Positions 2,155 to 14,323 of a stretch of 18,246 nucleotides of DNA are shown piece by piece. Below the pieces are notes generated by a model. It was not told where the DNA came from. It was given only the letters and a program-made list of their open reading frames with translations, and searched no databases. The stretch's first letter is position 1. Each line of letters begins with the position of its first letter. Position numbers and translations under genes: made by a program. This stretch comes from an uncultured Gammaproteobacteria bacterium (GTDB taxonomy: Bacteria > Patescibacteriota > Patescibacteriia > VMEV01 > CAZAJQ01): NCBI GenBank assembly GCA_964485795.1, contig CAZAJQ010000003.1, positions 51,533 to 69,778 on the forward strand, written 5' to 3'.

Positions 2155-2184
2155 TTGACAATAGGAATTAGATTAGTTTACAAT
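2155..2184 (+). promoter_or_regulatory. Sigma70-type promoter: TTGACA (2155-2160), 18-nt spacer, TACAAT (2179-2184)
   Basis: A perfect -35 hexamer and a 5/6 -10 hexamer sit in the 101-nt ruvA-downstream gap. The -10 overlaps the track's ATG at 2183, so the real start must be ATG 2195, only ~11 nt after the -10. Confidence 0.6.
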
Positions 2185-2194
2185 GAGGTTATGT

Positions 2195-3250
2195 ATGACA
2201 AATAAGGAAAAAATTTTAAAATTTATAGAGCGCCAGGGGAAAGCCACATCGCGAGAAATCATTGAAACGATCGGAGTATCTCGCCAGTACGTCAATCTGG
2301 TTATTTCCGAACTTGTTGCAGAAGAGAAGGTTTTGAAAGTTGGGTCGACTCGATACGCTTTTTACGTTTCCAAAGCGTATGTGGCAGATCATCCTGAAGT
2401 CGTACCGAATGTTTTTAAAAAACAATACGTCAATAAATCGCTCGAGGAGCACCGCGTATTTCTCGAAATCGAGGACAAACTGCCGCAACTCAAAGCACTC
2501 CCTGAAAACGTACGGAGTATTTTCACGTTCGCTTTTTCAGAGATGTTAAATAACGCGATCGAGCATTCCGGATCGAAACTCATATCCGTAGAAGTGATCA
2601 TTCGGGATAAACTCCTTTCATTCATCGTGAACGATGCCGGTGTGGGAGTCTTCCGCAAGATTATGAAAAACAGAAATCTCAAATCGGAAATCGAAGCGAT
2701 TCAGGATTTGCTGAAAGGTAAGACAACGACCATGCCGAAATCTCATTCTGGCGAGGGGATTTTTTTTACCTCCAAAGCGGGGGATACATTCGCATTGGAT
2801 AGTTTTGGCTCTATGCTTTCCATCGATAATCTCTCGGGAGATATATCCGTGCGAGCGACTTCTGCCATCAAACGAGGTACGAGAGTTATTTTTAAGATGA
2901 GTGTGGATTCCGATCGTCACCTGAATGATGTTTTCAAAAAATACACCGACCTGAACAGTGACAGTGATTATGGCTTCGACAAGACCGAAATTCGGGTAAA
3001 ACTTTTTACATCGGGTGGTGTTCATATTTCCCGGTCCCAAGCTCGGAGGATATTGGAAGGACTCGATAAATTCAAAGTGATCATGTTTGATTACGAGAAT
3101 GTGCCGCTCGTCGGACAGGCGTTTGCGGATGAAATCTACCGCGTTTTCCAGGAACGCCATCCGGACATCCGTCTCGAAAACGAAAATATGAGCGAAGGAG
3201 TGCTATTTATGGTCGAGCGAGCCAAAAATGAAACCAGAAAGAAAAAATAA
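2195..3250 (+). CDS. wHTH + GHKL (anti-sigma-kinase-like) ATPase + STAS-like (DUF4325-type) fusion protein, 351 aa
   Basis: N-terminal winged-HTH pattern KILKFIERQGKATSREIIETIGVSRQYVNLVISELVAEEKV (about 2195-2368). GHKL N-box EMLNNAIEHSG, G1 box NDAGVGV and G2-like SGEGIFFTS lie at about 2510-2902. The C-terminal block SQARRILEGLDKFKVIMFDYENVPLVGQAFADEIYRVF (about 2984-3217) fits my memory of the STAS-like DUF4325 family. Stop is TAA 3248-3250. Confidence 0.65.
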   Translation: MTNKEKILKFIERQGKATSREIIETIGVSRQYVNLVISELVAEEKVLKVGSTRYAFYVSKAYVADHPEVVPNVFKKQYVNKSLEEHRVFLEIEDKLPQLKALPENVRSIFTFAFSEMLNNAIEHSGSKLISVEVIIRDKLLSFIVNDAGVGVFRKIMKNRNLKSEIEAIQDLLKGKTTTMPKSHSGEGIFFTSKAGDTFALDSFGSMLSIDNLSGDISVRATSAIKRGTRVIFKMSVDSDRHLNDVFKKYTDLNSDSDYGFDKTEIRVKLFTSGGVHISRSQARRILEGLDKFKVIMFDYENVPLVGQAFADEIYRVFQERHPDIRLENENMSEGVLFMVERAKNETRKKK

Positions 3251-3283
3251 CGTTCAAAAAAATTTTTGCAGGTTACTCATATC

Positions 3284-4435
3284 ATGAAATCGCATTTCCG
3301 TTATATTATTCCGATCGTTGCGGGGCTGATTCTTTTTTCGGCCGCTTTTTTTGTGAAAAAAAATCAGCTGCCGCCCATGACCATCGAAGTTTACGGCACC
3401 AGTACGGATCTCAATATGATGGCCGTCGAGGACGCCTTGTTTTCCGTCGAAGAAAAATTCGATGACAAAGTTCGCATTCGCATGCATTATCTTTCTCCGC
3501 TCGATGAAGCGGGGAATTTCACGAGTTTGCAATCCCAACGTCTCGATGGAAAAAACGTATCGGACGAGATGAAGAGTTTTGACATCATGGAAAATCAAAG
3601 ACGGTTGGTAATGCAAAAATTTTTCCCATCCCATTTTTGGCCGTATATTCGACTTCGCAACAGTACCGGCATTGAGGTGGATTGGCAGCCTCTCGCTCGA
3701 TACATAGGCCTTGATGCCGTTGGGTTTCAAAAAAAGTTTTCGGACTTTGGGATTGATATGTTGCAGATGGAATACTCGTCGTTTCAAGCTGAGCAGGCAC
3801 ATTTTGACTTTGTGCCGTCCGAGGAAGTGCTGCCGTTTGTGATCATGAATGGAAAACTGTATCGTGGGAAAACGGATCTCGCGAGCATGGCATCCGAGGT
3901 GGCAAAATATTTTTTGCGCAAAGGAAGATCCGAGCTTCCTTCCGATCATTTTTGGAAAGTGGGGAGTTTTTCCATTCCAAAGCCTTGGGAATACGCATAT
4001 CGGGGAGTTCATGAATGTTACTCCGATGATGCCTGTCAGGAGAAGCGCGGAAAAATCGGAGTCTGTGAAAATAAAAATCGTCTTTTCGCGTATTGCCGCT
4101 ATGACGAAGCGCCGGTTGTGAACATTGTGGTCATCAAAGACGATTTTGATCAAAATTCCGATCCGTATATCAAGCTTTTCAAAAAAGATTTTGAAAATAT
4201 TTCCGTGAATCATTTTTCATCCGACTCGGAAGAAGCCAAACGGTGGAAAAAAAATCCCCAGCTGGCGTTTGATCCGCTGTATATTTTCGACGCCGCAATA
4301 GAAAAGCAACCTCGGTTCCAAACCTATATGAAAAACAATCTCCTGATCCGCCTTCCCGACGGCCGTTATGCAATCGCCTCAACGCTTTTTCGGAAAGAAA
4401 CCGCTCCTTCTTCCGCTGATGCAGAAGTGAGATGA
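3284..4435 (+). CDS. N-terminally membrane-anchored, two-domain thioredoxin/DsbA-like protein with degenerate active sites (383 aa)
   Basis: ATG 3284 gives MKSHFRYIIPIVAGLILFSAAFFVKK, a signal anchor. TIEVYGTSTDLNMMAVEDAL sits where related exported thioredoxin-fold proteins carry ..EFY.MSQCPYG.QAE... LPFVIMNGKLYRG resembles the cis-Pro/..NG..y.G block. A four-Cys linker ECYSDDACQEKRGKIGVCENKNRLFAYC (4016-4096) precedes a second alpha/beta-like domain. The coding call is firm; the fold assignment is from memory and is tentative. Confidence 0.5.
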   Translation: MKSHFRYIIPIVAGLILFSAAFFVKKNQLPPMTIEVYGTSTDLNMMAVEDALFSVEEKFDDKVRIRMHYLSPLDEAGNFTSLQSQRLDGKNVSDEMKSFDIMENQRRLVMQKFFPSHFWPYIRLRNSTGIEVDWQPLARYIGLDAVGFQKKFSDFGIDMLQMEYSSFQAEQAHFDFVPSEEVLPFVIMNGKLYRGKTDLASMASEVAKYFLRKGRSELPSDHFWKVGSFSIPKPWEYAYRGVHECYSDDACQEKRGKIGVCENKNRLFAYCRYDEAPVVNIVVIKDDFDQNSDPYIKLFKKDFENISVNHFSSDSEEAKRWKKNPQLAFDPLYIFDAAIEKQPRFQTYMKNNLLIRLPDGRYAIASTLFRKETAPSSADAEVR

Positions 4436-4455: not shown

Positions 4456-4560
4456 GAGAATCATGCTCAATGTTTCCGATGCGGTATAAAGCCCCAAACA
4501 CATCGTTTGAGTAACTTGTCGGTTATCTGCTTATTTTTTTCGATGTCCAACAAAACAAAC

Positions 4561-6324
4561 ATGAGTAAGAAGAAAATATTTCTGACGTTTGTCGCGACGG
4601 CAGGGGTTTTTTTGTTGCTTTCAAACATAAGCTTTGCCAAGCACAATAATATCGAAGGATTCGCATGGTCTAGTCTCTACGGATGGTTTTCGCATAATAA
4701 TAAAGACGTTTCATTACTTGATAAGGATTCTCATTATGGCGTGGAGCTTCTAGCAGACAATCGCTTGACGGGCTATGCGTGGAATCCCAACTTGGGGTGG
4801 ATTCAGTATGATCCCGTTGCACCCTACCCCGAGTCTCCGGATTTTTCCGCGACATTTGACCCGGCCACCCAAGATATCAACGGCTGGGCGAAGATCGTTT
4901 CTTTGGGAGACGACGGTTGGCTGAAGATGAATGATATCGGCTACGGCGTATCCATCGGTTGCAACGGGGATTTCAGCGGCTATGCATGGAACAATGCCAT
5001 AGGATGGATCGATTACAGCAAAAAGACTTTTACGTTTGGGCCAAAAAAAGAAAGCGATGGAAAACTCAAAGGCTATGCATGGACTTCCACGCATGGATTC
5101 ATTTCTCACAGCGATCAAGACACCGGCGGCGCGGCGGCGCCAAAAACGTATCAAGTGACTTTGAACGCCGGCAATAATTTTGAAGGATTCGCTTGGTCGC
5201 CTTATCTCGGATACATAGATTTCAATCCTACCGGCATTCATCCCGGCGCACCGTCAAACGGGGTTCGCTATGATTCGAGCACCAAAGAAGTTTCCGGATG
5301 GGCGAAGATTGTGGAATTCGGCGATGACGGATGGATTTCGTTTCGAGGCATATCGGGCGACGGAGATCCGTATGGAGTGACTTTGGATGACGAAGGATAT
5401 TTCAACGGCTATGCATGGAATCCGATCATCGGATGGCTGGACTATCGCAAAGGAAGGGGGGGCGTAAAGCGGGTGGGTCTTGAAACGCCGCTTTCCGCGC
5501 CGCAGCTGGAAAGTCCGGTGAATGAAGTGGATTTGGGCATGTCAAACCCTTCCACCTATTTTACGCCAACTCTTGATTTCACTTCGTTTCCGGTGATAGG
5601 TCCTGCTTGCGCCGGATCGGAAAAAGCGTATCAGGTTCAGGTTTCGCGGCTCAACGATTTTCCCGACCCGGGTTCTCCGGGGCAAGCGGTGCCAGACCCA
5701 CTCGATCCGCGCTGGTCAAGCATCATGGTCAATGACACGATTTACACGACCTCTTCATCGGCCTATACGATTTTGGCCGGTGTTTTTGATCTTTCGGATC
5801 CAAACGGCCTTGCGCCCGGAACGGATTATAATCAAACGTTTTATTGGCGCGTGAGGTATCAAAATTCCAGCGATGAGCTGACGGATTGGGGGACGATAGC
5901 GCGTATTTTTGCACCGGTGGTAACGCCAAACGCTTTTAAGATGCCCAAGCATGCGCCTCCTCTCGCGGATTTTACCTACGATCCTTTGGAGCCTCCGGCA
6001 TTCACAGAAACGAAATTCACGGATACTTCCATAAGCTATGGAGGCAGTACTTTGGTATACTGGAAATGGGATTTTGGCGATTCACATATCATTGAATGCG
6101 CGGATGCCGGCGGTATCACATGTACCTGCGAGAAAGCCGGAACTGCCGTCACTTGCCCGGCGTTTGAAAATCAGCATCCCGTCCATGTGTATACCGATGA
6201 CGGGCTCATGACGGTTTCGCTTTTGATCCGCGATTCCGACGGATACGAAGGCACCAAGGTATTGCCCGCTCCGCTCAACGTCACCTTACCTTTGCCGAAG
6301 TTTGAGCTTGGTGCGCCGAGATGA
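4561..6324 (+). CDS. Secreted multi-domain surface protein (587 aa): signal peptide, eight G-[YFW]-A-W repeats, Fn3-like domain, PKD domain
   Basis: ATG 4561 gives a textbook Sec signal peptide, MSKKKIFLTFVATAGVFLLLSNISFA|KHNN. ATG 4543 is a possible alternative; the track's TTG at 4507 is unlikely. The repeat region is 4651-5451. A Fn3-like block at about 5479-5916 runs from AYQVQVSRLNDF to FYWRVRYQNSSDELTDWG. The PKD block at 5962-6276 contains WKWDFGDS ... HVYTDDGLMTVSLLIRDSDG. Stop is TGA 6322-6324. Confidence 0.8.
   Translation: MSKKKIFLTFVATAGVFLLLSNISFAKHNNIEGFAWSSLYGWFSHNNKDVSLLDKDSHYGVELLADNRLTGYAWNPNLGWIQYDPVAPYPESPDFSATFDPATQDINGWAKIVSLGDDGWLKMNDIGYGVSIGCNGDFSGYAWNNAIGWIDYSKKTFTFGPKKESDGKLKGYAWTSTHGFISHSDQDTGGAAAPKTYQVTLNAGNNFEGFAWSPYLGYIDFNPTGIHPGAPSNGVRYDSSTKEVSGWAKIVEFGDDGWISFRGISGDGDPYGVTLDDEGYFNGYAWNPIIGWLDYRKGRGGVKRVGLETPLSAPQLESPVNEVDLGMSNPSTYFTPTLDFTSFPVIGPACAGSEKAYQVQVSRLNDFPDPGSPGQAVPDPLDPRWSSIMVNDTIYTTSSSAYTILAGVFDLSDPNGLAPGTDYNQTFYWRVRYQNSSDELTDWGTIARIFAPVVTPNAFKMPKHAPPLADFTYDPLEPPAFTETKFTDTSISYGGSTLVYWKWDFGDSHIIECADAGGITCTCEKAGTAVTCPAFENQHPVHVYTDDGLMTVSLLIRDSDGYEGTKVLPAPLNVTLPLPKFELGAPR
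4651..5451 (+). repeat. Protein-level tandem repeats: eight ~31-38-aa units built on G-[YFW]-A-W-x(3-4)-G-[WFY]-[ILF], arranged as two ~135-aa super-repeats
   Basis: Repeat cores are GFAWSSLYGWFSH (4657-4695), GYAWNPNLGWIQY (4771-4809), GWAKIVSLGDDGWLKM (4882-4929) and GYAWNNAIGWIDY (4978-5016). These are followed by GYAWTSTHGFISH (5071-5109), GFAWSPYLGYIDF (5185-5223), GWAKIVEFGDDGWISF (5296-5343) and GYAWNPIIGWLDY (5407-5445). Units 1-4 and 5-8 match one-to-one in order and subtype. Confidence 0.85.
5962..6276 (+). other. PKD-type Ig-like domain with a ~30-aa four-Cys insertion
   Basis: FTDTSISYGGSTLVYWKWDFGDS, then IIECADAGGITCTCEKAGTAVTCPAFENQ, then HPVHVYTDDGLMTVSLLIRDSDG. This is the canonical WDFGD ... 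HxY..G.Y.V.L.v.D pattern with an unusually long cysteine-bearing loop between the two halves. Confidence 0.7.
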
Positions 6325-6378
6325 GCGGAGACAACCCATCAGAGGGTGTTTCGCATCATTCTTTCACATTTATTCATT

Positions 6379-7104
6379 ATGAGGAGTAATTTTCAAAATT
6401 TTATTTTCATTTTTACCCTCGGGTTGATTTTCGGGTTGGCCGTTTTTTCATCCGGAGCTGAGCTTTTGGCGGCTTGGACTTCGCCGGGGCTCGGGTGCTC
6501 GGTGGGACAATGCTTGCCGACCGGCAAGGTGGATGCCGGAACCGCGTCGCAAACCGGAAACGATCGTTTGACGATCAACGGGAAATTGGAAATCGGCGGA
6601 GAAGCGTACGGGCAAAGCGATGTGGCGATCGTGGACGGCGACCTCGTGCTGTCCGATGATGGCGACGATCCCGGTGATGTCGTTTTCTACGATGAAGCGC
6701 GCAATCTTCTCGGGAAAATATACGCGTTTTCAAACGGGCTGCATCTGCAATCCTCGTCTGCACGTCCGGCGGATCTTTTCATCGCAAATGACGGCGGAAA
6801 TGTGGGCATCGGCACACAAACCCCGGAAAGCAATCTTCACGTCGTCGGAAATTTTCAACTCATCGACGGCCATCAAGCGCAAAACGCATTGATGGTTTCC
6901 GATGGCGTCGGCAATGCGCAATGGAAATCGTCTGCAACGGCGTATCAATGTCCAGCAATCGCCTCCACCGGAGGATGTGGGGCTTCCAATTGCGATGGCA
7001 ATCTTCATTTCGAAACGTCGACATGTCAATATCAGGTCTGGGTGTTCGGGTGCACACCGGTCACGGCCAATTGTTCGGCCGCAGGGTATTATTCGGCGCA
7101 ATAA
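6379..7104 (+). CDS. Exported fibre-like paralog P1 (241 aa), W-x-S-P-x-C family
   Basis: ATG 6379 gives MRSNFQNFIFIFTLGLIFGLAVFSSGAELLA|AWTSPGLGCSVGQC. The central stalk motif is GGNVGIGTQTPESNLHVVG (6796-6849), followed by LMVSDGVGNAQW. The C-terminal ~55 aa carry 7 Cys. Stop is TAA 7102-7104. The track's GTG at 6346 would add an odd hydrophobic extension and is rejected. Confidence 0.8.
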   Translation: MRSNFQNFIFIFTLGLIFGLAVFSSGAELLAAWTSPGLGCSVGQCLPTGKVDAGTASQTGNDRLTINGKLEIGGEAYGQSDVAIVDGDLVLSDDGDDPGDVVFYDEARNLLGKIYAFSNGLHLQSSSARPADLFIANDGGNVGIGTQTPESNLHVVGNFQLIDGHQAQNALMVSDGVGNAQWKSSATAYQCPAIASTGGCGASNCDGNLHFETSTCQYQVWVFGCTPVTANCSAAGYYSAQ

Positions 7105-7175
7105 AGGATTTTTTATTGTAATGGCATGGCGAGAAATTTTTTACGAGCTCTCAAAAATCGATTGAACCCTCGATT

Positions 7176-7919
7176 ATGAATATCACAAAAATCACCTCCG
7201 GAGCTATTTTCGCGGTTCTGGTATCGGCCACAGTTTTTGCGGTCCAAACCCATGTGTTTGCCCAATGGATCGAGCCGACATGCAGCGGTCCTTCGTGCGG
7301 CAAGGAAATATTGCGTTCCGATCTTGCGGAGCAGGAGAAAAGGGGCGATTTTCATCTGCTGGGCAATCTCGGAATTAAGACTGAAAATCCTGGCGATGCT
7401 TTTGAAATATTCGGAGGAGGCAATGTCAGCTTGGAAAGCATGAGCATTCCCGGAGCTTTGAAATTTTACAATTCCGTTTCCGATGAATTCGGAAAAATCG
7501 CAGTCACGGACAACGGTTTGTTTTTGGCCGCGGATACGCAAAGATCGGCGGATATTTTTTTGCAAAAAAACGGCTCGGTGGGCATCGGCTCAAATAAACC
7601 TCAAAGCACATTGCATGTGGCCGGATCCATGAAGGTGGTGGACGGAACGCAAGGAGCCAATAAAGTGTTTGTCTCCGACGCGGCCGGGAAGGGAGGGTGG
7701 AAAAATCTCCGTGCCGTCTACTATTGCGGTTATTATTCCGGCGGTCTTTGCGGCGGAGGTACGCAATGCAGCGGTCAATACGCGCTATGGCCCATTTCTT
7801 GCGCGTATCAGGAGTGCGCGGGAGCCGGAGGAGGAGATAAAAAGGGTCCGAGCTTTGGAACACCGGGAAACTGGCTGAACTATGATTGTCCGCAAATAGG
7901 AAATATTGTCGAGCCGTAG
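7176..7919 (+). CDS. Exported fibre-like paralog P2 (247 aa), W-x-E-P-x-C family
   Basis: N-terminus is MNITKITSGAIFAVLVSATVFAVQTHVFA|QWIEPTCSGPSCG. First stalk motif LGNLGIKTENPGDAFEIFG (7359-7415); central motif NGSVGIGSNKPQSTLHVAG (7569-7625); then VFVSDAAGKGGW. The C-terminal ~65 aa carry 7 Cys. Stop is TAG 7917-7919. Confidence 0.8.
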   Translation: MNITKITSGAIFAVLVSATVFAVQTHVFAQWIEPTCSGPSCGKEILRSDLAEQEKRGDFHLLGNLGIKTENPGDAFEIFGGGNVSLESMSIPGALKFYNSVSDEFGKIAVTDNGLFLAADTQRSADIFLQKNGSVGIGSNKPQSTLHVAGSMKVVDGTQGANKVFVSDAAGKGGWKNLRAVYYCGYYSGGLCGGGTQCSGQYALWPISCAYQECAGAGGGDKKGPSFGTPGNWLNYDCPQIGNIVEP

Positions 7920-7921
7920 CT

Positions 7922-8518
7922 ATGGACAGAAAAACGTTGCTCATGATGTTTGGTCTTGAAACGTCTTTGTTCGTCGCCTTTTTCAGCTATATCTGGATAT
8001 TCGCGCCCAAAAGCGGGGATATCACGAGTTTGACCCTCTATCAAAAGGGTTATGAAGATGGAAATTTGGCGGGAACGAAAATCTCGGGAGATGAAAACAG
8101 AAATTCAAATTTTCGCGCTGTCGGGACGGTTGTAAGCGCAGAAAATGGTGAAATGATTTTTGACATCGCACGGCAACCATCGAGCATTCAGGATTTCTCC
8201 GGCGAGCATGCACTTGTTTTGGATGCGAATGTGAAATTTTTTGATATTCTAGTAAAGACGCAAGCGCAGTATGAAAAAGAGACGCAGGCATACTATCAAG
8301 CAATGATTTTTGATAAAAAATTCAGGACGGCTCCGAACGCATTTGATATACTTTCGAGGGATTTGCTACCTGTTGTCGGAGATACCGTTTTGATCGTGTT
8401 TCGCAAAGAAGGCGGGGAAAATCGTATGCTGGAGGGGACGACTATCCCGCAAGCGTATGTTTCAAACGGAGATTTTTTGCAGCAAAGTTTTCAGATCATG
8501 AAAGAGAGTGATCGTTGA
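7922..8518 (+). CDS. N-terminally TM-anchored companion protein C1 (198 aa)
   Basis: ATG 7922 lies 2 nt after the P2 stop. MDRKTLLMMFGLETSLFVAFFSYIWIF is a single TM segment. The beta-rich ectodomain contains NRNSNFRAVGTVVSAENGEMIF ... VGDTVLIVF and aligns by eye with C2. The track start at 7886 overlaps P2 and is rejected. Confidence 0.7.
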   Translation: MDRKTLLMMFGLETSLFVAFFSYIWIFAPKSGDITSLTLYQKGYEDGNLAGTKISGDENRNSNFRAVGTVVSAENGEMIFDIARQPSSIQDFSGEHALVLDANVKFFDILVKTQAQYEKETQAYYQAMIFDKKFRTAPNAFDILSRDLLPVVGDTVLIVFRKEGGENRMLEGTTIPQAYVSNGDFLQQSFQIMKESDR

Positions 8519-8536
8519 TGATGGCCTTCGCCATCA
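8519..8536 (+). other. Perfect 7-bp stem / 4-nt loop hairpin directly after the C1 stop codon
   Basis: TGATGGC (8519-8525), loop CTTC, GCCATCA (8530-8536); all seven pairs are Watson-Crick. No U-tract follows (AAACGTTCC), so it is not a canonical intrinsic terminator. It sits at the boundary between the two three-gene modules. Confidence 0.45.
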
Positions 8537-8567
8537 AACGTTCCGCGTATCGGTTTATCGTAAACCA

Positions 8568-9233
8568 ATGAAAAAAATACTTTTTGATTTTGGAAAATAT
8601 ATCGGCATGTTCGCATTGGGAATCGGCATGGCCGGTATGGTGACTTTGTCGCAAAACGCTTTGGCCGATTGGCGATCGCCGTCTTGCAATCCGCCGGACT
8701 GCGGCGTGGATGCATCAAAGCTCATATCCGTGGAAGGCGGTGGAAACATCGTTGGTGATTTGAAAATACTTGGAAAACTCGGAGTCAAAACCAGTTCCCC
8801 GAAAGCGCGTCTTGATATCTCGCTCGGTGGAGATCTGATTCTGTCCGACGAAGCGCAAAATCCGGGAGACTTGCTTTTTGTCCAAGGAGGGCGTGAGCTG
8901 GCTCGCATTTACGGGGCGTCGGAGAGGATGGTTTTTTCCGCGTATGAAAATCCAAATCAGCTGGTGATTGATCATGCCACGGGAAGAGTCGGAGTGGGAG
9001 TGGCGGTTCCGCAGAGCACGTTGCACATTGCCGGAAGTCTGCGCATCAATAACGGCAGCGAGGGCGCCGGAAAGGTATTGGCCTCGGATGGAGAGGGAAA
9101 TGTTTTTTGGCGATCGACGGACATGCGCGTTTTGTTTTGCCCGACGTATAATCCTCCGTCGATCGTTTTCAGCTCGCTTGGGCTGATTTACTATACCGAA
9201 TGTTCTGAGCGTGGCCATTTGATTTCGCTTTAA
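8568..9233 (+). CDS. Exported fibre-like paralog P3 (221 aa), W-x-S-P-x-C family
   Basis: ATG 8568 gives MKKILFDFGKYIGMFALGIGMAGMVTLSQNALA|DWRSPSCNPPDCG. First stalk motif ILGKLGVKTSSPKARLDISLGG (8766-8831); GDLILSDEAQNPGDLLF aligns with P1 GDLVLSDDGDDPGDVVF; central motif TGRVGVGVAVPQSTLHIAG (8979-9035); then VLASDGEGNVFW. The tail is short, with 2 Cys. Stop is TAA 9231-9233. Confidence 0.8.
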   Translation: MKKILFDFGKYIGMFALGIGMAGMVTLSQNALADWRSPSCNPPDCGVDASKLISVEGGGNIVGDLKILGKLGVKTSSPKARLDISLGGDLILSDEAQNPGDLLFVQGGRELARIYGASERMVFSAYENPNQLVIDHATGRVGVGVAVPQSTLHIAGSLRINNGSEGAGKVLASDGEGNVFWRSTDMRVLFCPTYNPPSIVFSSLGLIYYTECSERGHLISL

Positions 9234-9292
9234 CGATTCGCTGCGGTATACTTGATAAAGAATTTTTTCAATCTCATTTTTCAAATTTGCGT

Positions 9293-10231
9293 ATGCATGT
9301 TTTTCAAAAAGTTTTTTTCGCATTATGGGGAGCGGTTATCAGCGTGGGCATTTTTTTTGTATCGCAAAATCTCATGGCGGCATGGAGTGAACCCGCATGC
9401 GATCCGGGACCAAACCCGGGCGCATGCAACGCTTCAGAGCCCATCAATGTAGGCACCGAAACGCAAAGCAAGGCTGGAAGTTTGGGTGTCATGGGAAATC
9501 TCGGCGTAGGCACCGGTACTCCGTCAGCCAAACTTTTCATCAGCGGAGACACGACCGCGGATTGGAAAAACGCTTCCATATGGATTCAAAATTCCGCGGC
9601 CGGTGGACGGATTTTCGCTATTGCCAGCAGACTGGACAATCCCGGCCAGCCCTATTTGGGCTTTACCGATGAAACCGCCGGGCAGGTGAGGATGTATCTG
9701 GATCAAAACGGCAACGTAGGCATCGGAGGTTATCCGACGAATAAGCTTTCGATCGAAGGAAGTCTTGATATGGCCGCGGGAACGACGATTTACAATCGGG
9801 GTCGCATGCATGTTTTCGGCGAAGAAATACTCTACCTTCTCAATCGAAGCGGAACCGTCGTGAGCAAAGCATGGGGAGGCAATGGAAATCTTTCGGTGGA
9901 AGGCGAAGAGTATGTGAGCGGAAAGTTTAATTTCAATCCTCATACGAATACGTGGGGGTCAAATTTTTATTTCCGCGGTTGGGCCGAGCCGGACAACTGC
10001 TGGCATGTGGGCGGTTATTATGAGGCTCCCTTTCAGTGTATCGGAAATTATATTGACCTCGGACAGCATAGTTTTTGCGCATTGGGGACGGTTTTCAGCG
10101 AACATCTGTACGATCAAGGCGGCGGATCCGCGATTTGCAATGTTTACTTTGACGGGCCCGCCAATACATGGCGTCTCTATGCCACCGAAGGATATGGAGG
10201 CGGAGTCGGTTGCGGGGTGAATTGTTTTTGA
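9293..10231 (+). CDS. Exported fibre-like paralog P4 (312 aa), W-x-E-P-x-C family, with an enlarged C-terminal domain
   Basis: ATG 9293 gives MHVFQKVFFALWGAVISVGIFFVSQNLMA|AWSEPACDPGPNPGAC. PINVGTETQSKAGSLGV follows, then first stalk motif MGNLGVGTGTPSAKLFISG (9491-9547) and central motif NGNVGIGGYPTNKLSIEG (9707-9763). A ~155-aa Gly/aromatic/Cys-rich domain replaces the SD..GN..W head. Stop is TGA 10229-10231. Confidence 0.8.
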   Translation: MHVFQKVFFALWGAVISVGIFFVSQNLMAAWSEPACDPGPNPGACNASEPINVGTETQSKAGSLGVMGNLGVGTGTPSAKLFISGDTTADWKNASIWIQNSAAGGRIFAIASRLDNPGQPYLGFTDETAGQVRMYLDQNGNVGIGGYPTNKLSIEGSLDMAAGTTIYNRGRMHVFGEEILYLLNRSGTVVSKAWGGNGNLSVEGEEYVSGKFNFNPHTNTWGSNFYFRGWAEPDNCWHVGGYYEAPFQCIGNYIDLGQHSFCALGTVFSEHLYDQGGGSAICNVYFDGPANTWRLYATEGYGGGVGCGVNCF

Positions 10232-10236
10232 AACCT

Positions 10237-10743
10237 ATGCCCAAATATTTCGAGCGATTTTTTTCTCATCTTGGAAATTTTTTTATCGGGATGGTGTTTG
10301 TTGTGCTGATATTTGTTTCGGGTATGGTCGTCAACCTTGTTTTGATCAATCCAAAACCCCAGCCGTATTCTTTTGAGATTCGAACCAATAGCGAGATCGT
10401 GAGCACCGCCGGGACGGTGCAGTCGGTGGGGGACAACTTTTTTATCCTTGGTTTCGAACCTCAGCTGCTTTTATCTCAACGTTTTCAGGAGAAAAAACTT
10501 CCGCAGAGTTTGAAGGTGTATTGGGATGAAAACACGGATTTTTTGGAAAATTTCTTATCGACTCAAATATCGATACCAAATCAAAATAACGGATCCGTTC
10601 TGGTGTCATCCCCGCAAAAATTGAGTCACAATGATTTGAAAGCGGGAATTCGTGTGATCGTGAATTTCGGAGAAAATATTTCTGAACAAACCGAAGCAAA
10701 AGCCAAGTCCATTTTTTTTGTAAATACCGGTTCAAAGCCTTGA
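10237..10743 (+). CDS. N-terminally TM-anchored companion protein C2 (168 aa)
   Basis: ATG 10237 lies 5 nt after the P4 stop. MPKYFERFFSHLGNFFIGMVFVVLIFVSGMVVNLVLI is the TM anchor. IRTNSEIVSTAGTVQSVGDNFFI ... AGIRVIVNF aligns by eye with C1. Stop is TGA 10741-10743. The track start at 10168 overlaps P4 and is rejected. Confidence 0.7.
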   Translation: MPKYFERFFSHLGNFFIGMVFVVLIFVSGMVVNLVLINPKPQPYSFEIRTNSEIVSTAGTVQSVGDNFFILGFEPQLLLSQRFQEKKLPQSLKVYWDENTDFLENFLSTQISIPNQNNGSVLVSSPQKLSHNDLKAGIRVIVNFGENISEQTEAKAKSIFFVNTGSKP

Positions 10744-10789
10744 AGAGGCCTTCTTGCCGAAAACGTGACAGCATTTTCCACAAACTCTG

Positions 10790-10818
10790 TTGACACCCTT
10801 TGTCAACGGTGGTATTAT
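10790..10818 (+). promoter_or_regulatory. Strong sigma70-type promoter for rpoBC: TTGACA (10790-10795), 17 nt, TGgTATTAT (10810-10818)
   Basis: A perfect -35, the optimal 17-nt spacer, an extended -10 TG at 10810-10811 and a 5/6 -10 hexamer at 10813-10818. It predicts a ~100-nt leader. A Shine-Dalgarno AAGGGAG at 10915-10921 lies 7 nt before ATG 10929. Confidence 0.65.
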
Positions 10819-10928: not shown

Positions 10929-13900
10929 ATGTTTAAAAAAATTGAACGTAAATACTTTACTGCCCCTCGTGAAGTAGCCCCTTTGCCGGATCTCATCGAA
11001 ATACAGAAAAATTCCTTCCACTGGTTTCTCAAGGAAGGATTGAAAGAACTCTTTGAAGAAATATCTCCGATTACTGATTTTATCGGTCGCGATCTCGAGC
11101 TTTTTTTGGCGGATTATTACCTCGATGAAGCGAAGTTTGACGAAGTGACAAGCAAAAACAAGAATATCACCTATGAAGCGCCTTTGCGCGTGAAGGCCAA
11201 GCTCGTGAACAAACGCACGCATGAGGTGAAGGAGCAGGAAGTGTATTTGGGCGATTTCCCGCTGATGACGGATCGGGGAACGTTCATTGTCAACGGCATT
11301 GAACGCGTGGTGGTCTCGCAGCTCATTCGTTCACCAGGAATATTTTTCACCTCCGATCCAAGTCACGGTCGCAAGTATTACGGCGCCAAGGTGATACCAA
11401 ACCGCGGTGCATGGATCGAGATCGAAACCGATCAAAACGATGAAATTTACGCCAAGATCGATCGCAAACGCAAGGTACCCATTACCGCGCTTTTGCGTGC
11501 GTTCGGATATAGCGCGGACGATGAGATTCGAAGTTTGTTTGCCGATCTTTTTGATACGGAAAACGCTTTGAATTACATCGAAAACACTTTGAAAAAAGAC
11601 GCTTCCAAGAACGAAGAAGATGGCTTGAAGGAAGTGTATAAACGAGTTCGTCCCGGGGATTTGGCCACCACCGACAATGCCCGTTCTCTCATACACGGCA
11701 TGTTTTTCAATTTCAGTCGGTACGATTTCGGACGCGTGGGAAGGTACAAGATCAACGAACGATTCGAAGAAGATTTGCCGATTACAAAAGAAAACCGCGT
11801 TTTGCGCAAAGAAGATTTGATTCATGTGGTGCGCGAAATTATTCGTTTGAATAAAACCCAAGAAGACGCCGATGATATTGATCATCTCGGCAATCGTCGC
11901 GTGCGTGCCATCGGAGAGCTGGTGCAAAACAAATTTCGCATCGGTCTTGCTCGCATGGAGCGCATCGTGAAAGAGCGCATGAGCACCTATGATATTGAGA
12001 CATTGACGCCCAATAAGCTCATCAATGCCCGTCCGATCATCGGAGTCGTGAAGGAATTTTTCATGTCTTCGCAGCTTTCGCAATTCATGGATCAGACCAA
12101 TCCTTTGTCCGAGCTGGAGCATAAGAGACGACTTTCGGCCATGGGGCCGGGAGGATTGTCGCGCGAAAGAGCGGGTTTTGATGTTCGCGACGTGCATACT
12201 TCGCATTACGGACGCATTTGTCCCATTGCCACGCCCGAAGGTCCGAATATCGGACTGGTAGGGCATTTGGCGAGCTATGCGCGGGTCAATGATTATGGGT
12301 TTTTGGAGACGCCGTTTCGAAGAGTGAAGCATGATCCCCGCAATACACCCTCCGAGATTGTCGGCGAAATAGCCCGCGAAGATATTGATCGCGTCGTCAA
12401 AGCCGGCGAGATGATTACCGAAAAAATCGCTCAGAAATTGGCGAAATTGCATAGGGAGACCATTCCCGTGAAAGCGCGCGTCACCGATGAGGTCGCGTAT
12501 CTTACGGCCACGGTTGAAGAGCGCTCGGTCACCACTCCGGCTACAACGGCTCTGGATGAAAAAGGTTACTTTTTGTCTGAAAAGGTGGAAGGTCGCGTGC
12601 ACGGAAAGCCGGGTAAAATCGCTTCCCATCAAGTGGATCTCATGGACGTTTCATCCAAGCAAATTCTTTCGATCGCAACTTCTTTGATACCTTTTGTCGA
12701 GCATGACGATGCGAACCGCGCATTGATGGGCACGAATATGCAACGTCAGGCGGTTCCCTGCGTGGCGCCGAAAGCTCCTCTCGTGGGTACGGGGGTGGAA
12801 GCATTGGCGGCGCAAAATTCCGGACAATTGCTCATGTCCGCCTATGACGGTGAAATCACGGAAGCTGACGCCGCGCATATCGTGATTCGAAAGAAAGACA
12901 ATCATCTGGATACGTTCAAGCTCAAGAAATTTTTGCGATCAAACCATTCCACCTGCATCAATCAGCATGTTTTGGTGACCAAGGGCGACAAGGTGAAAAA
13001 AGGTGATATTTTGGCCGATGGTTCGGCAACCGAGCGTGGAGATTTGGCCTTGGGGCAAAATCTTTTGGGCGCTTTTCTTTCATGGGAGGGGGGGAATTTT
13101 GAAGACGCCATATTGATATCCGAAAGAGTGGTGTATAATGATTATTTTTCATCGGTGCATATTGAAGATTATACCATCGACGTGCGCGATACGAAGCTTG
13201 GCCCGGAGCTGATCACGAGTGATATTCCCAATATCAGCGAAGAACGTCTCAAGGATCTCGACGAAGAAGGTATCATACGTATCGGCGCCAAGGTTTCGTC
13301 CGGTGACATTCTCGTGGGAAAGATCACTCCAAAAGGTGAAACCGAGCTTTCTCCGGAAGAAAAGTTGCTTCGCGTGATTTTCGGAGAAAAGGCAAAAGAC
13401 GTGAGGGATTCATCGCTGTACCTCGAACATGGCGAGCATGGCAAGGTCGTGGACGTGAAAATCTTTTCGCGCGATGCAGGAGACAAACTTCCGACCGGCG
13501 TGATCAAGAGCGTACAGGTTTCCATCGCTCAGCTGCGCAAGATTCAGGTGGGCGACAAAATGGCCGGAAGGCATGGAAATAAAGGTGTGGTGTCGCGCGT
13601 TGTGGCTCTCGAGGATATGCCGTTCATGGAAGACGGACGTCCGCTCGACATTATTTTGAGCCCCTTGGGTGTGATTTCCCGTATGAATCTCGGGCAGATT
13701 TTTGAAATTCATCTGGGTATGGCCGCGCATCATCTCGATTATCACGCCGCCACACCGGTACTCAACGGCATCAGCGAGCAAACCATCAAAGACGAATTGG
13801 TGAAAGCCGGGTTTGGCACTTCCGGACAAATGAAGCTCATCGACGGCAGGTCGGGAGAGCATTTTGACAATCCTTCCACGGTGGGATTCGTGTACATGCT

Positions 13901-14282
13901 CAAGCTCAATCATCTTGTGGAAGACAAGATTCACCAGCGTTCCATCGGACCGTATTCACTCATCACCCAGCAACCCTTGGGAGGCAAGGCGCAATTCGGC
14001 GGACAGAGATTCGGAGAAATGGAAGTATGGGCGCTGGAAGCCTATGGCGCGGCGCATATTTTGCAGGAAATCTTGACCATCAAGTCCGATGATGTCATGG
14101 GACGCTCCAAGGCGTATGAGTCCATCATCAAGGGTGAATCCATTCAAAAGGTGAATATTCCGGAGTCATTCAATGTGCTTATTCGAGAGCTGAAAGGATT
14201 ATGTCTTGATGTGGAGATTTTCAACGAAAACAATGAAAAGGTCGAAGAAAGAAACGTGGATGCGACTTCACTTGTTTCCTGA
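10929..14282 (+). CDS. rpoB: DNA-directed RNA polymerase beta subunit (1117 aa)
   Basis: Full-length ORF with hallmark blocks: [49 protein letters not shown] (the rifampicin-cluster region), [15 protein letters not shown] and [24 protein letters not shown]. There is a good SD. Stop is TGA 14280-14282. Confidence 0.97.
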   Translation: [1117 protein letters not shown]

Positions 14283-14323
14283 TCATTGCTTCGGCTCTTA
14301 TTTCGCTGTCAAATTTTTCATAT

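What the first reader, a model, noticed from the sequence alone, without database searches (positions are those of the whole stretch)
6475..9427. The four paralogs share a near-invariant mature N-terminus: ...A|x-W-x-[SE]-P-x-C-x4(8)-C
Directly after the hydrophobic signal segment, each paralog has the same short motif. P1 has LLA-AWTSPGLGCSVGQC (W at 6475, second Cys at 6511-6513). P2 has VFA-QWIEPTCSGPSCG (7266 to 7298). P3 has ALA-DWRSPSCNPPDCG (8670 to 8702). P4 has LMA-AWSEPACDPGPNPGAC (9383 to 9427). If signal peptidase I cuts after the Ala, Trp would be residue +2, Pro +5 and Cys +7 of every mature protein. The second Cys is 4 residues on in P1-P3 and 8 residues on in P4, which would allow a tiny N-terminal disulfide loop. 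Conservation this tight at the extreme mature N-terminus, while the rest of each protein diverges strongly, suggests a shared function. That function could be a processing, sorting, anchoring or subunit-docking signal, not just a generic signal-peptide cleavage region. I recall Cys-free 'AW.EP..PP' N-termini in other CPR hypothetical proteins, but I know of no function for them.
Basis: seen in the sequence. Interest (0 to 1): 0.8.

Follow-up and report, generated by a model that had tools for sequence, protein, structure and literature searches.

The report
Conserved N-terminal tag on CPR surface fibres
Four neighbouring secreted fibre-like proteins start with the same short Trp-Pro-Cys motif, which is a disulfide-bearing version of an apparently undescribed N-terminal module found on hundreds of secreted fibre/adhesin proteins of the ultrasmall CPR (Patescibacteria) bacteria and probably forms the cell-proximal foot of these fibres.

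Summary
The motif is real at the stated coordinates. It is not a quirk of these four paralogs. P4 is a significant full-length match (E=1.9e-10) to a ~35-residue module, W-x-x-P-x3-P-P-x2-N-x3-P-[ILV]-N-x5-Q-x-K-x-G-x-L. P1-P3 keep only its first ~12 residues.

It gave 0 hits in 2.9 million viral contigs. In all 134 matches the Trp directly follows a Sec-type signal peptide (Ala at -1 in 66%). The module never occurs internally.

The Cys pair replaces positions 6 and 11, flanking the Pro-Pro. Cys there is present as a pair or absent. Fourteen more Cys-paired examples came from metagenomes, and a syntenic orthologous locus keeps the pair.

The protein bodies are homologous to the trimeric Bdellovibrio MAT fibres. 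Module-bearing relatives carry collagen, S74 chaperone and YadA parts, and no enzymes.

My best reading is a cell-proximal foot or cap of secreted trimeric fibres, exposed by signal peptidase I, with a lineage-specific disulfide staple. The docking partner is unknown. No Pfam or NCBIfam model, PDB entry or paper describes the module.

The parts
4561..6324 (+). REP: a secreted protein with two tandem ~150-aa 'GW' domains (GYAWxxxxGWIxF ... YGV ... GWAK ... DGWI motifs) followed by an Ig/PKD tail. It lies directly upstream of the four paralogs.
   Evidence: The same family sits next to module genes, usually on the same strand, in 30 of ~120 loci. The AF2 model has pLDDT 85.8. Foldseek finds no PDB match for the GW domain.
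6379..7104 (+). P1 (241 aa from ATG 6379; an alternative GTG start is at 6346). Fibre-like secreted protein with a Cys-rich C-terminal tip.
   Evidence: (P0002 is the identical protein).
6472..6513 (+). P1 motif A-W-T-S-P-G-L-G-C-S-V-G-Q-C. It is the most divergent copy: no Pro-Pro, and three residues between Pro and the first Cys.
   Evidence: No match to the module HMM. The cleavage site is ambiguous.
7176..7919 (+). P2 (247 aa). Fibre-like secreted protein.
7263..7298 (+). P2 motif Q-W-I-E-P-T-C-S-G-P-S-C, following the predicted cut VFA|Q.
   Evidence: The module HMM matches the first 12 positions only, E=0.97.
7922..8518 (+). C1: a 198-aa protein with an N-terminal transmembrane helix and no Cys. 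It follows the P1-P2 pair.
   Evidence: The same gene order (fibre, fibre, TM protein) occurs in syntenic locus L142.
8568..9233 (+). P3 (221 aa from ATG 8568). Fibre-like secreted protein.
8667..8702 (+). P3 motif D-W-R-S-P-S-C-N-P-P-D-C, following the predicted cut ALA|D. This is the canonical first half of the module with Cys at positions 6 and 11.
   Evidence: Module HMM positions 2-17 match, E=0.068. The same C-x-P-P-x-C form is seen in P0108, L014, L030 and L125-L138.
9293..10231 (+). P4 (312 aa). Fibre-like secreted protein. Its ortholog is the 217-aa protein at 11371-12024 of locus L142.
   Evidence: (P0001).
9380..9493 (+). P4 full N-terminal module: A-W-S-E-P-A-C-DPGPNPGA-C-N-A-S-E-P-I-N-V-G-T-E-T-Q-S-K-A-G-S-L-G-V. 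It carries a 4-residue insertion inside the Cys loop.
   Evidence: The module HMM matches full length (positions 2-36), E=1.9e-10, 36.5 bits. AF2 predicts coil with pLDDT 55-71, directly after a helix at residues 2-29 that is the signal peptide.
10234..10743 (+). C2: a 169-aa protein with an N-terminal transmembrane helix and no Cys. It follows the P3-P4 pair.

Best explanation
P1-P4 are small secreted fibre proteins, probably trimeric, of a CPR/Patescibacteria bacterium. Their bodies are homologous to the Bdellovibrio MAT fibres and to phage tail fibres. The shared motif is the first half of a CPR-wide N-terminal module of about 35 residues.

Proposed mechanism, all inferred: signal peptidase I cuts at the A-x-A-like site and leaves Trp as residue +1 or +2. 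The exposed Pro-rich segment (W-x-E-P-x3-P-P) forms the cell-proximal foot of the fibre. It either docks the fibre non-covalently on a common surface element or caps and registers the trimer. The variable Cys-rich C-terminal tips point outward as binding heads. In this lineage the two small residues flanking the Pro-Pro have been replaced by a Cys pair, which forms a disulfide staple. That staple is either a small intrachain loop or an inter-chain knot in the trimer.

Shown: the motif and its coordinates; its strict position after a signal peptide; its CPR-wide distribution; the all-or-none Cys pair; and fibre homology of the body. Inferred: cleavage, trimer formation by P1-P4 themselves, the disulfide, and the docking or cap function.
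For: - Position: the module always lies directly after a 22-35 aa signal peptide, with Ala at -1 in 66% and Ala/Val at -3 in 50%. It never occurs internally in 566,000 residues of giant fibre-repeat proteins.
- Distribution: at least 120 stretches in species-representative genomes, nearly all CPR, against about 0.07 expected by chance. There were 0 hits in viral contigs.
- Family link: P4 matches the module HMM at E=1.9e-10. P3 and P2 match the first half only.
- Body: P1-P4 match solved MAT fibre structures by sequence (8ond, E=4.7e-14) and by fold (the top 11 Foldseek hits are all MAT fibres). They also match a phage tail-fibre PHROG.
- Cargo: among 110 module proteins, Pfam finds only fibre/adhesin parts. 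These are Peptidase_S74 (7), Collagen (6), Gly_rich_2, Shufflon_N, Ig, YadA_head and T4 gp36, with no enzymes. The syntenic orthologs in L142 carry collagen GPQ/GPA repeats behind the same Cys-paired N-terminus.
- Precedent: all 21 MAT fibres have a conserved N-terminal domain right after the signal peptide, thought to bind a cell-surface element (PMC10769870). A 19-residue N-terminal peptide of the trimeric BclA fibre suffices for very stable attachment to the BxpB trimer (PMC10470788).
- Disulfide: Cys occurs as a pair or not at all, total Cys counts are even, and C1/C2 have no Cys, so the pair must be satisfied within the fibre.
Against: - No partner has been identified and no multimer prediction could be run.
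- The AF2 monomer of P4 has low confidence (mean pLDDT 58) and shows the module only as coil. That fits a docking peptide, but it equally fits a segment that folds only in the trimer.
- P1-P3 have lost the second half of the module, so they may not behave like canonical members.
- Cleavage is inferred from the (-3,-1) rule only. P1 has a competing site five residues upstream.
- The GW-repeat protein, the most consistent neighbour, also occurs at the distal end of a pilin-like protein (P0327). That argues against it being a simple base.
Confidence: 0.5

Rival explanations
1. Purely structural trimer cap. The module is simply the first folded element of the fibre and nucleates or registers the three chains. 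It has no docking partner, and the Cys pair forms an inter-chain cystine knot.
For: All recognisable partner domains are obligate trimers (collagen, S74, YadA). The second half of the module has an alternating hydrophobic pattern typical of strands. C1 and C2 have no Cys to pair with. From my own knowledge, a C-x4-C motif at a trimer junction is the FACIT-collagen inter-chain knot; this was not tested here.
Against: P1-P3 keep the Pro-rich first half while the strand-like second half has decayed. That is odd for a pure folding nucleus. Strict conservation of a Trp at the very first mature residue suggests that a free N-terminus is recognised.
Confidence: 0.22
2. A true sorting or processing signal. 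The module would be an N-terminal address tag read by a dedicated enzyme or machine, in the way that LPXTG is read by sortase or the class III signal by prepilin peptidase. That machine would then attach or assemble the fibres.
For: A strictly positioned, clade-wide tag sits on many otherwise diverse secreted proteins. The genes are repeatedly close to type IV pilus genes: pilB in 12 loci, pilC in 5, pilD in 4. Signal peptidase S26 is among the immediate neighbours in 3 of 148.
Against: No enzyme family recurs next to the module genes; the neighbours are mostly housekeeping genes or small unknown membrane proteins. The pilin signature G|F-x-x-x-E is absent. The S26 count is barely above my rough estimate of chance. 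The cargo is restricted to fibres rather than a general secretome.
Confidence: 0.1
3. Uncleaved signal anchor. The hydrophobic segment stays in the membrane, Trp sits at the membrane-water interface, and the Pro-rich stretch is a rigid stalk.
For: The hydrophobic segments are long, at 17-20 residues. Trp is typical of membrane interfaces. AF2 draws residues 2-29 of P4 as one helix ending exactly before the motif.
Against: Small residues are conserved at -1 and -3 (Ala at -1 in 66%), which is the signature of a cleaved signal, not an anchor. Long h-regions are normal for single-membrane bacteria (my own knowledge).
Confidence: 0.1
4. Paralog-only similarity, a chance motif, or a lipoprotein lipobox at the first Cys.
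For: The four genes are tandem paralogs with 22-32% identity.
Against: The module occurs in more than 130 proteins of many CPR lineages and in a syntenic ortholog. The DNA differs at synonymous sites. The residues before the Cys (E-P-T, S-P-S, E-P-A) do not fit L-[AS]-[GA]-C, and the Cys lies 8-10 residues beyond the hydrophobic core.
Confidence: 0.02

Closest known systems
Bdellovibrio bacteriovorus MAT (mosaic adhesive trimer) fibres: Bd2133, Bd1334, Bd2439, Bd3182 (PMC10769870; PDB 8ond, 8oml, 8ol4/8onf, 8onc)
   Same: The architecture is the same: a signal peptide, then a conserved N-terminal element shared by many paralogs, then a fibre shaft with GNVGIGTxxPxxKL-type repeats, then a highly variable C-terminal tip. 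The P1-P4 shaft is homologous by sequence (E=4.7e-14) and gives the best fold matches. The MAT authors also infer that the N-terminal part binds a cell-surface element.
   Different: The MAT N-terminal element is a ~130-aa beta-rich domain in a two-membrane predator. Here it is a ~35-aa Pro-rich module (12 aa in P1-P3) in CPR bacteria. P1-P4 are far shorter (190-280 aa mature against roughly 800-1100) and lack S74. Homology between the two N-terminal elements could not be tested.
BclA N-terminal domain docking on BxpB in the Bacillus anthracis exosporium (PMC10470788)
   Same: A short N-terminal peptide (residues 20-38), exposed by proteolysis, of a trimeric collagen-like fibre with a variable globular tip is sufficient for extremely stable non-covalent attachment to a basal protein. 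This is the best functional analogue for a docking foot.
   Different: BclA carries no Sec signal and is assembled inside the mother cell. No sequence similarity was tested; a 'PTxPP'-like resemblance is only my recollection. The partner here is unknown.
N-terminal connector (Ntc) of Ena endospore appendage subunits, and the N-terminus of L-BclA (PMC11362473)
   Same: A flexible N-terminal peptide of about 14 residues carries Cys that locks one subunit to the next by disulfide bonds. A collagen-like tip fibril with an N-terminal double-Cys motif is proposed to dock in the same way.
   Different: Ena subunits are jellyroll pilins that polymerise. In this window the candidate partners C1 and C2 have no Cys, and most family members have no Cys in the module. 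Disulfide docking to a partner is therefore unlikely to be the general mechanism.
Phage tail-fibre and adenovirus-fibre N-terminal attachment segments (own knowledge; PHROG 9942 hit)
   Same: A conserved N-terminus fixes the fibre to a common base, while the C-terminal receptor-binding part varies.
   Different: The module is absent from 2.9 million viral contigs and follows a Sec signal peptide. These are cellular, exported fibres.
Type IV pilins (class III signal peptide)
   Same: A conserved N-terminus with a variable C-terminus across many paralogs. The genes are often near pilB/pilC/pilD.
   Different: There is no G|F-x-x-x-E cleavage/methylation motif. The conserved part lies after the hydrophobic segment rather than being that segment.

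Membership tests
CPR N-terminal fibre module (defined here: W-x2-P-x3-P-P-x2-N-x3-P-[ILV]-N-x5-Q-x-K-x-G-x-L) | Lies directly after a Sec-type signal peptide, with Trp at +1 to +3 of the predicted mature protein | tested here: met
   P2 VFA|QW, P3 ALA|DW, P4 LMA|AW. P1 is either LLA|AW or SGA|ELLAAW.
CPR N-terminal fibre module (defined here: W-x2-P-x3-P-P-x2-N-x3-P-[ILV]-N-x5-Q-x-K-x-G-x-L) | Significant match to an HMM built from 123 canonical modules | tested here: inconclusive
   P4 is met (E=1.9e-10, full length). P3 gives E=0.068 and P2 E=0.97, both for the first half only. P1 gives no hit. P1-P3 are linked to the family through their paralogy with P4 and through the L142 orthologs.
CPR N-terminal fibre module (defined here: W-x2-P-x3-P-P-x2-N-x3-P-[ILV]-N-x5-Q-x-K-x-G-x-L) | Second half present: N-x3-P-[ILV]-N ... 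Q-x-K-x-G-x-L | tested here: not met
   Present in P4 only. P2 keeps Q-E-K-R-G-D-F, P1 keeps S-Q-T-G-N-D-R-L, and P3 has lost it.
MAT / tail-fibre-like trimeric fibres (Bdellovibrio MAT family) | Fibre shaft homologous to solved MAT structures (GNVGIGTxxPxxKL repeats) | tested here: met
   PDB sequence search: 8ond E=4.7e-14, 8ojn E=1.7e-8. The top 11 Foldseek hits are MAT fibres. 1440 profile hits share the repeat.
MAT / tail-fibre-like trimeric fibres (Bdellovibrio MAT family) | Conserved ~130-aa beta-rich N-terminal domain after the signal peptide | tested here: not met
   Only about 35 residues (12 in P1-P3) precede the first fibre repeat.
MAT / tail-fibre-like trimeric fibres (Bdellovibrio MAT family) | Homotrimer | not testable with these tools
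   Support is indirect only: collagen, S74 and YadA parts in module-bearing relatives and collagen repeats in the syntenic orthologs.
Type IV pilin / class III signal peptide | Short charged leader, G at -1, F/M at +1, E at +5, N_methyl motif | tested here: not met
   No Pfam N_methyl hit for P1-P4, and the sequences lack G|F-x-x-x-E. True pilins in neighbouring loci do hit N_methyl.
Bacterial lipoprotein (SPase II) | Lipobox L-[ASTVI]-[GAS]-C at the end of the h-region | tested here: not met
   The residues before the first Cys are E-P-T, S-P-S, E-P-A and G-L-G, lying 8-12 residues after the hydrophobic core.
BclA-type exosporium targeting N-terminal domain | Conserved N-terminal targeting motif that binds BxpB/ExsFA; proteolytic removal of the first 19 residues | not tested
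   Used as a functional analogy only. No BxpB-like gene was looked for.

The most novel reading that the evidence does not exclude
The module would be the address tag of a previously unrecognised, CPR-wide surface-display system. Signal peptidase I would expose an N-terminal Trp-Pro-rich 'knob'. That knob would plug many interchangeable fibre adhesins per genome into one common receptor on the cell envelope or pilus. Candidate receptors are the co-located GW-repeat protein, the small TM protein with ILxSLTAP repeats, and the C1/C2 TM proteins. This would be an N-terminal counterpart of LPXTG/sortase or PEP-CTERM/exosortase sorting, and it would define the host-attachment repertoire of episymbiotic ultrasmall bacteria.
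Probability: 0.2. Interest if true: 0.8.

Novelty: new variant of a known kind. Interest (0 to 1): 0.55.

Why it matters
CPR/Patescibacteria make up a large share of bacterial diversity and live attached to other microbes. How they recognise and hold their hosts is largely unknown beyond type IV pili.

A strictly N-terminal, clade-wide module on secreted trimeric-fibre proteins with hypervariable tips gives a simple sequence handle. With it, the probable adhesin repertoire of any CPR genome can be listed. It also gives a defined peptide for fishing out the envelope component that holds these fibres.

The Cys-paired variant in this window adds a natural 'stapled' form that could be used to test the geometry of the foot. 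The conserved cassette of small TM protein, GW-repeat protein and fibre(s) suggests a multi-part surface structure that has not been described.

Tried and rejected
It returned 67,671 repeat proteins and says nothing specific about the module.
2. A 42-aa module profile in the search for homologous proteins returned only four fragments, apparently because only proteins of similar length were scored.
3. Pfam, NCBIfam and PHROGs have no model for the module, the GW domain, C1/C2 or the small TM proteins.
4. A PDB profile search with the module gave nothing (best E=1.2, spurious).
5. The AF2 monomer of P4 was low confidence and gives no geometry for the Cys pair.
6. The AF2 model of REP was confident, but Foldseek matched only its Ig/PKD tail.
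7. BLAST between C1 and C2 is not significant. A six-sequence alignment with the syntenic homologues shows only a shared architecture.
8. Four literature searches found no description of the motif.
9. Rejected readings: lipobox, type IV pilin signal, gene conversion, phage origin, and a general secretome tag. The reasons are given in the rival explanations and membership tests.

Full report
LAYOUT. All genes in the window are on the + strand. In order they are:
- the ileS 3' end and ruvA;
- an HTH/HATPase/DUF4325 protein (2183-3250);
- a secreted hypothetical protein (3266-4435);
- REP, a 587-593-aa repeat protein (4543/4561-6324);
- P1 (6379-7104) and P2 (7176-7919);
- C1, a 198-aa membrane protein (7922-8518);
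- P3 (8568-9233) and P4 (9293-10231);
- C2, a 169-aa membrane protein (10234-10743);
- rpoB and rpoC.

OBSERVATION. In the four-way alignment the invariant N-terminal columns are Ala(-2), Trp, Pro, Cys and Cys. The paralogs are otherwise 22-32% identical.

P1 deviates from the stated pattern, with three residues between Pro and the first Cys. The motif window (0.40 mean pairwise identity) is one of about four conserved islands. The fibre repeat VGIGTxxPxxxL is more conserved (0.53), and the whole-alignment mean is 0.17. The DNA of the four motifs differs at synonymous positions, so this is protein-level conservation and not gene conversion.

By the (-3,-1) rule the likely signal peptidase I sites are VFA|QW (P2), ALA|DW (P3) and LMA|AW (P4). 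P1 has two candidate sites, SGA|ELLAAW and LLA|AW.

WHAT THE PROTEINS ARE. Pfam and NCBIfam give nothing for P1-P4, C1 or C2. A profile of the four paralogs finds 1440 proteins. Most share only the GNVGIGTxxPxxKLxV repeat and carry Peptidase_S74, phage Collar, C1q, H_lectin or YadA domains. All four paralogs weakly hit a phage tail-fibre PHROG.

Against the PDB, the profile matches the Bdellovibrio 'mosaic adhesive trimer' fibres (8ond Bd2133, E=4.7e-14; also 8ojn, 8oml, 8on4, 8ol4). A low-confidence AF2 monomer of P4 (mean pLDDT 58) still retrieves only these fibres as its top 11 Foldseek hits, followed by T4 gp34. So P1-P4 are short, exported, MAT/tail-fibre-like proteins with Cys-rich variable C-terminal tips.

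THE MOTIF IS PART OF A CLADE-WIDE MODULE. Among the first 120 homologues, eleven had the same kind of N-terminus after a signal peptide. Most lacked Cys (AWTEPTxxPPxGNVxAPINVGxxxQxKxGxL). Some had a Cys pair, for example P0108 with ADWQEPTCDPPDCNVTAPLN.

I wrote a degenerate DNA pattern for W-x2-P-x3-P-P-x2-N-x3-P-[ILVFM]-N-x5-Q-x-K. It has about 22 specified bases, so my arithmetic expects about 0.07 chance hits in 596 Gb. Nearly all were labelled Patescibacteria or CPR lineages: Parcubacteria groups, Moranbacteria, Kaiser-, Yonath-, Nealson- and Falkowbacteria and others. The same pattern gave 0 hits in 2.9 million viral contigs.

In all 134 matches the Trp follows a 22-35-aa signal peptide. 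Position -1 is Ala in 66%, and position -3 is Ala or Val in 50%. In most proteins Trp is therefore predicted to be the very first mature residue. Positions the pattern did not force are also conserved: Thr2, Glu3, Thr/Ser5, Gly28 (92%) and Leu30 (79%).

The downstream proteins range from 44 to more than 2100 aa. In 566,000 residues of giant fibre-repeat proteins, neither half of the module occurs internally.

An HMM of 123 canonical modules matches P4 full length (E=1.9e-10). It matches P3 (E=0.068) and P2 (E=0.97) only over the first half, and does not match P1. The window's shared motif is thus the first about 12 residues of this module. P4 provides the link to the family.

THE CYS PAIR. In the canonical numbering (Trp = 1) the two Cys replace positions 6 and 11, which flank the Pro-Pro. 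Those positions are otherwise small residues (Ala/Gln/Ser and Gly/Asn/Asp).

In the unbiased genome sample, the first 22 residues contain 0 Cys in 130 modules, 2 Cys in 3 modules, and never 1. The whole mature proteins have an even Cys count in 123 of 134 cases. A pattern forcing Cys at 6 and 11 found 14 more metagenome examples, all after signal peptides.

P1-P4 have 8, 8, 4 and 8 Cys; C1 and C2 have none. A disulfide is therefore well supported. Whether it is an intrachain C-x4-C loop or an inter-chain knot in a trimer cannot be decided here.

RELATED LOCI. Using REP homologues I found two syntenic loci with the order ileS-ruvA-REP-...-rpoB.

In L142 the order after REP is:
- a fibre starting AAWAEPSC...CN, with collagen repeats;
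- a fibre starting AAWSDPTCDPTSAGGPGACN, with collagen repeats;
- a TM protein;
- a fibre starting AQWTEPTCAPPGCN, the P4 ortholog;
- a second TM protein.

So the Cys-paired N-terminus and the 'fibre(s) then TM protein' order are conserved between organisms. The collagen repeats argue that these cluster proteins are trimers. In L141 the single fibre has lost both the Trp and the Cys (FAAPSAPPPGS...).

CARGO AND NEIGHBOURS. Pfam on 110 module proteins finds only fibre or adhesin parts: Peptidase_S74 in 7, Collagen in 6, Gly_rich_2 in 3, Shufflon_N in 2, plus Ig, YadA_head and T4 gp36. It finds no enzymes.

Clustering all ORFs of the 120 loci shows that the most frequent neighbour is the REP family, present in 30 loci including the window. 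REP is usually adjacent and on the same strand. It is often accompanied by a 90-120-aa TM protein with ILxSLTAP-like repeats, and often lies next to nusA. pilB (12 loci), pilC (5), pilD (4) and pilins also recur.

Among 148 immediate neighbours no sortase-like or other candidate processing enzyme recurs. ClpP appears 6 times and signal peptidase S26 3 times.

REP folds confidently (pLDDT 85.8), but its GW domain has no PDB fold match. One REP relative, P0327, is a type IV pilin-like protein with the GW repeats at its distal end.

INTERPRETATION. The data fit the architecture described for the Bdellovibrio MAT family: a signal peptide, then an invariant N-terminal element presumed to bind a cell-surface component, then a trimeric shaft, then a swappable tip (PMC10769870). 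The CPR element is much shorter and unrelated in appearance.

A short N-terminal peptide can be enough. Residues 20-38 of the collagen-like BclA fibre alone form an extremely stable complex with the BxpB trimer (PMC10470788). N-terminal connector peptides with Cys lock Ena spore-appendage subunits together, and a double-Cys N-terminus is proposed to dock the L-BclA tip fibril (PMC11362473).

My best explanation (confidence 0.5) is that the motif is the cell-proximal foot or cap of exported trimeric fibres, exposed by signal peptidase I and stapled by a disulfide in this lineage. The rivals are:
- a pure trimer cap with no partner (0.22);
- a dedicated sorting signal (0.10);
- an uncleaved signal anchor (0.10);
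- paralog-only similarity, chance or a lipobox (0.02; refuted).

NOVELTY. No Pfam, NCBIfam or PHROG model, PDB entry or paper in the held library describes the module. The general design is known, so I rate it a new variant of a known kind, with moderate-to-good interest (0.55).

Noticed in passing
window 4543-6324 (REP); loci L007, L015, L020, L023, L047, L061, L095, L127 and others: REP is a CPR-wide secreted protein family. Its conserved ~150-aa 'GW' domain (GWAWSxNIGWISFN ... YGV ... SGYAWSxNIGWIxF ... GWAR ... GWDGWIxL ... GYAWG..VGWIxF) is followed by Ig/PKD domains. The window protein has two tandem GW domains. The domain has no Pfam model apart from a weak DUF7038 hit. AF2 is confident (pLDDT 85.8), but Foldseek finds no PDB match for the GW part. 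REP is the most frequent neighbour of module-bearing fibre genes.
   Followed up: partly
P0327: A REP relative has a type IV pilin N-terminus (GFTLIELL, Pfam N_methyl), then Ig-like repeats, then C-terminal GW repeats. In some organisms the GW module is therefore displayed on a pilin-like protein.
   Followed up: no
L015:674-967, L020:4578-4910, L027:4179-4475, L071:3435-3716, L110:2902-3201, L127:4929-5276 and others: A 90-120-aa protein with one N-terminal TM helix and 2-3 short repeats of the type (E)xxILxSLTAP lies between or next to REP and the fibre genes in many CPR loci. No family model matches it. It is absent from this window, where C1 and C2 occupy comparable positions.
   Followed up: partly
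window 7922-8518 (C1) and 10234-10743 (C2); L142:10817-11368 and 12028-12543; L141:13411-13998 and 14001-14594: These TM-anchored proteins of 170-200 aa have no Cys and no family hit. Each follows one or two fibre genes, and the order is conserved in the syntenic loci. Pairwise similarity is weak (only the two L141 copies are significant, E=2.6e-11), but an alignment shows a common architecture.
   Followed up: partly
L124, L089, L087, L110, L048: The REP-fibre cassette lies next to type IV pilus genes in several lineages (pilB, pilC, pilD and pilins; identities confirmed). In L124 all of them are on one strand. This could reflect a functional link or only conserved synteny. nusA, tig and clpP are similarly frequent neighbours.
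   Followed up: partly
L142:9485-10156 and 10160-10807: The syntenic counterparts of the window's fibres carry collagen-like GPQ/GPA triplet runs between the N-terminal module and a Cys-rich C-terminus. The window paralogs have no collagen run.
   Followed up: no
L141:14591-15274: A fibre in the syntenic locus has a degenerate module without the Trp and without Cys (..GFVFA|APSAPPPGSTIPLPLTRGSTAETKAGAL). The Trp is therefore not absolutely required in every lineage.
   Followed up: no
L011, L061, L054, L039, L012: Some ORFs consist of little more than the signal peptide and the module, with mature lengths of 44-72 aa. They may be fragments or pseudogenes, or genuine mini-proteins that compete for the same site.
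   Followed up: no
window 2183-3250: This protein combines a winged-helix HTH, a histidine-kinase-like ATPase domain and a C-terminal DUF4325 (STAS-like) domain. The architecture recalls anti-sigma-factor or ATPase regulators. It lies two genes upstream of the fibre cluster.
   Followed up: no
L033 (labelled Thermoplasmata), L037 (Bdellovibrionales), L058 (Gammaproteobacteria): Three module hits lie on contigs labelled as non-CPR. Their signal peptides and modules closely resemble those of CPR hits (for example L033 against L099 and L119, and L037 against L066), so mis-binning is likely. This was not checked.
   Followed up: no
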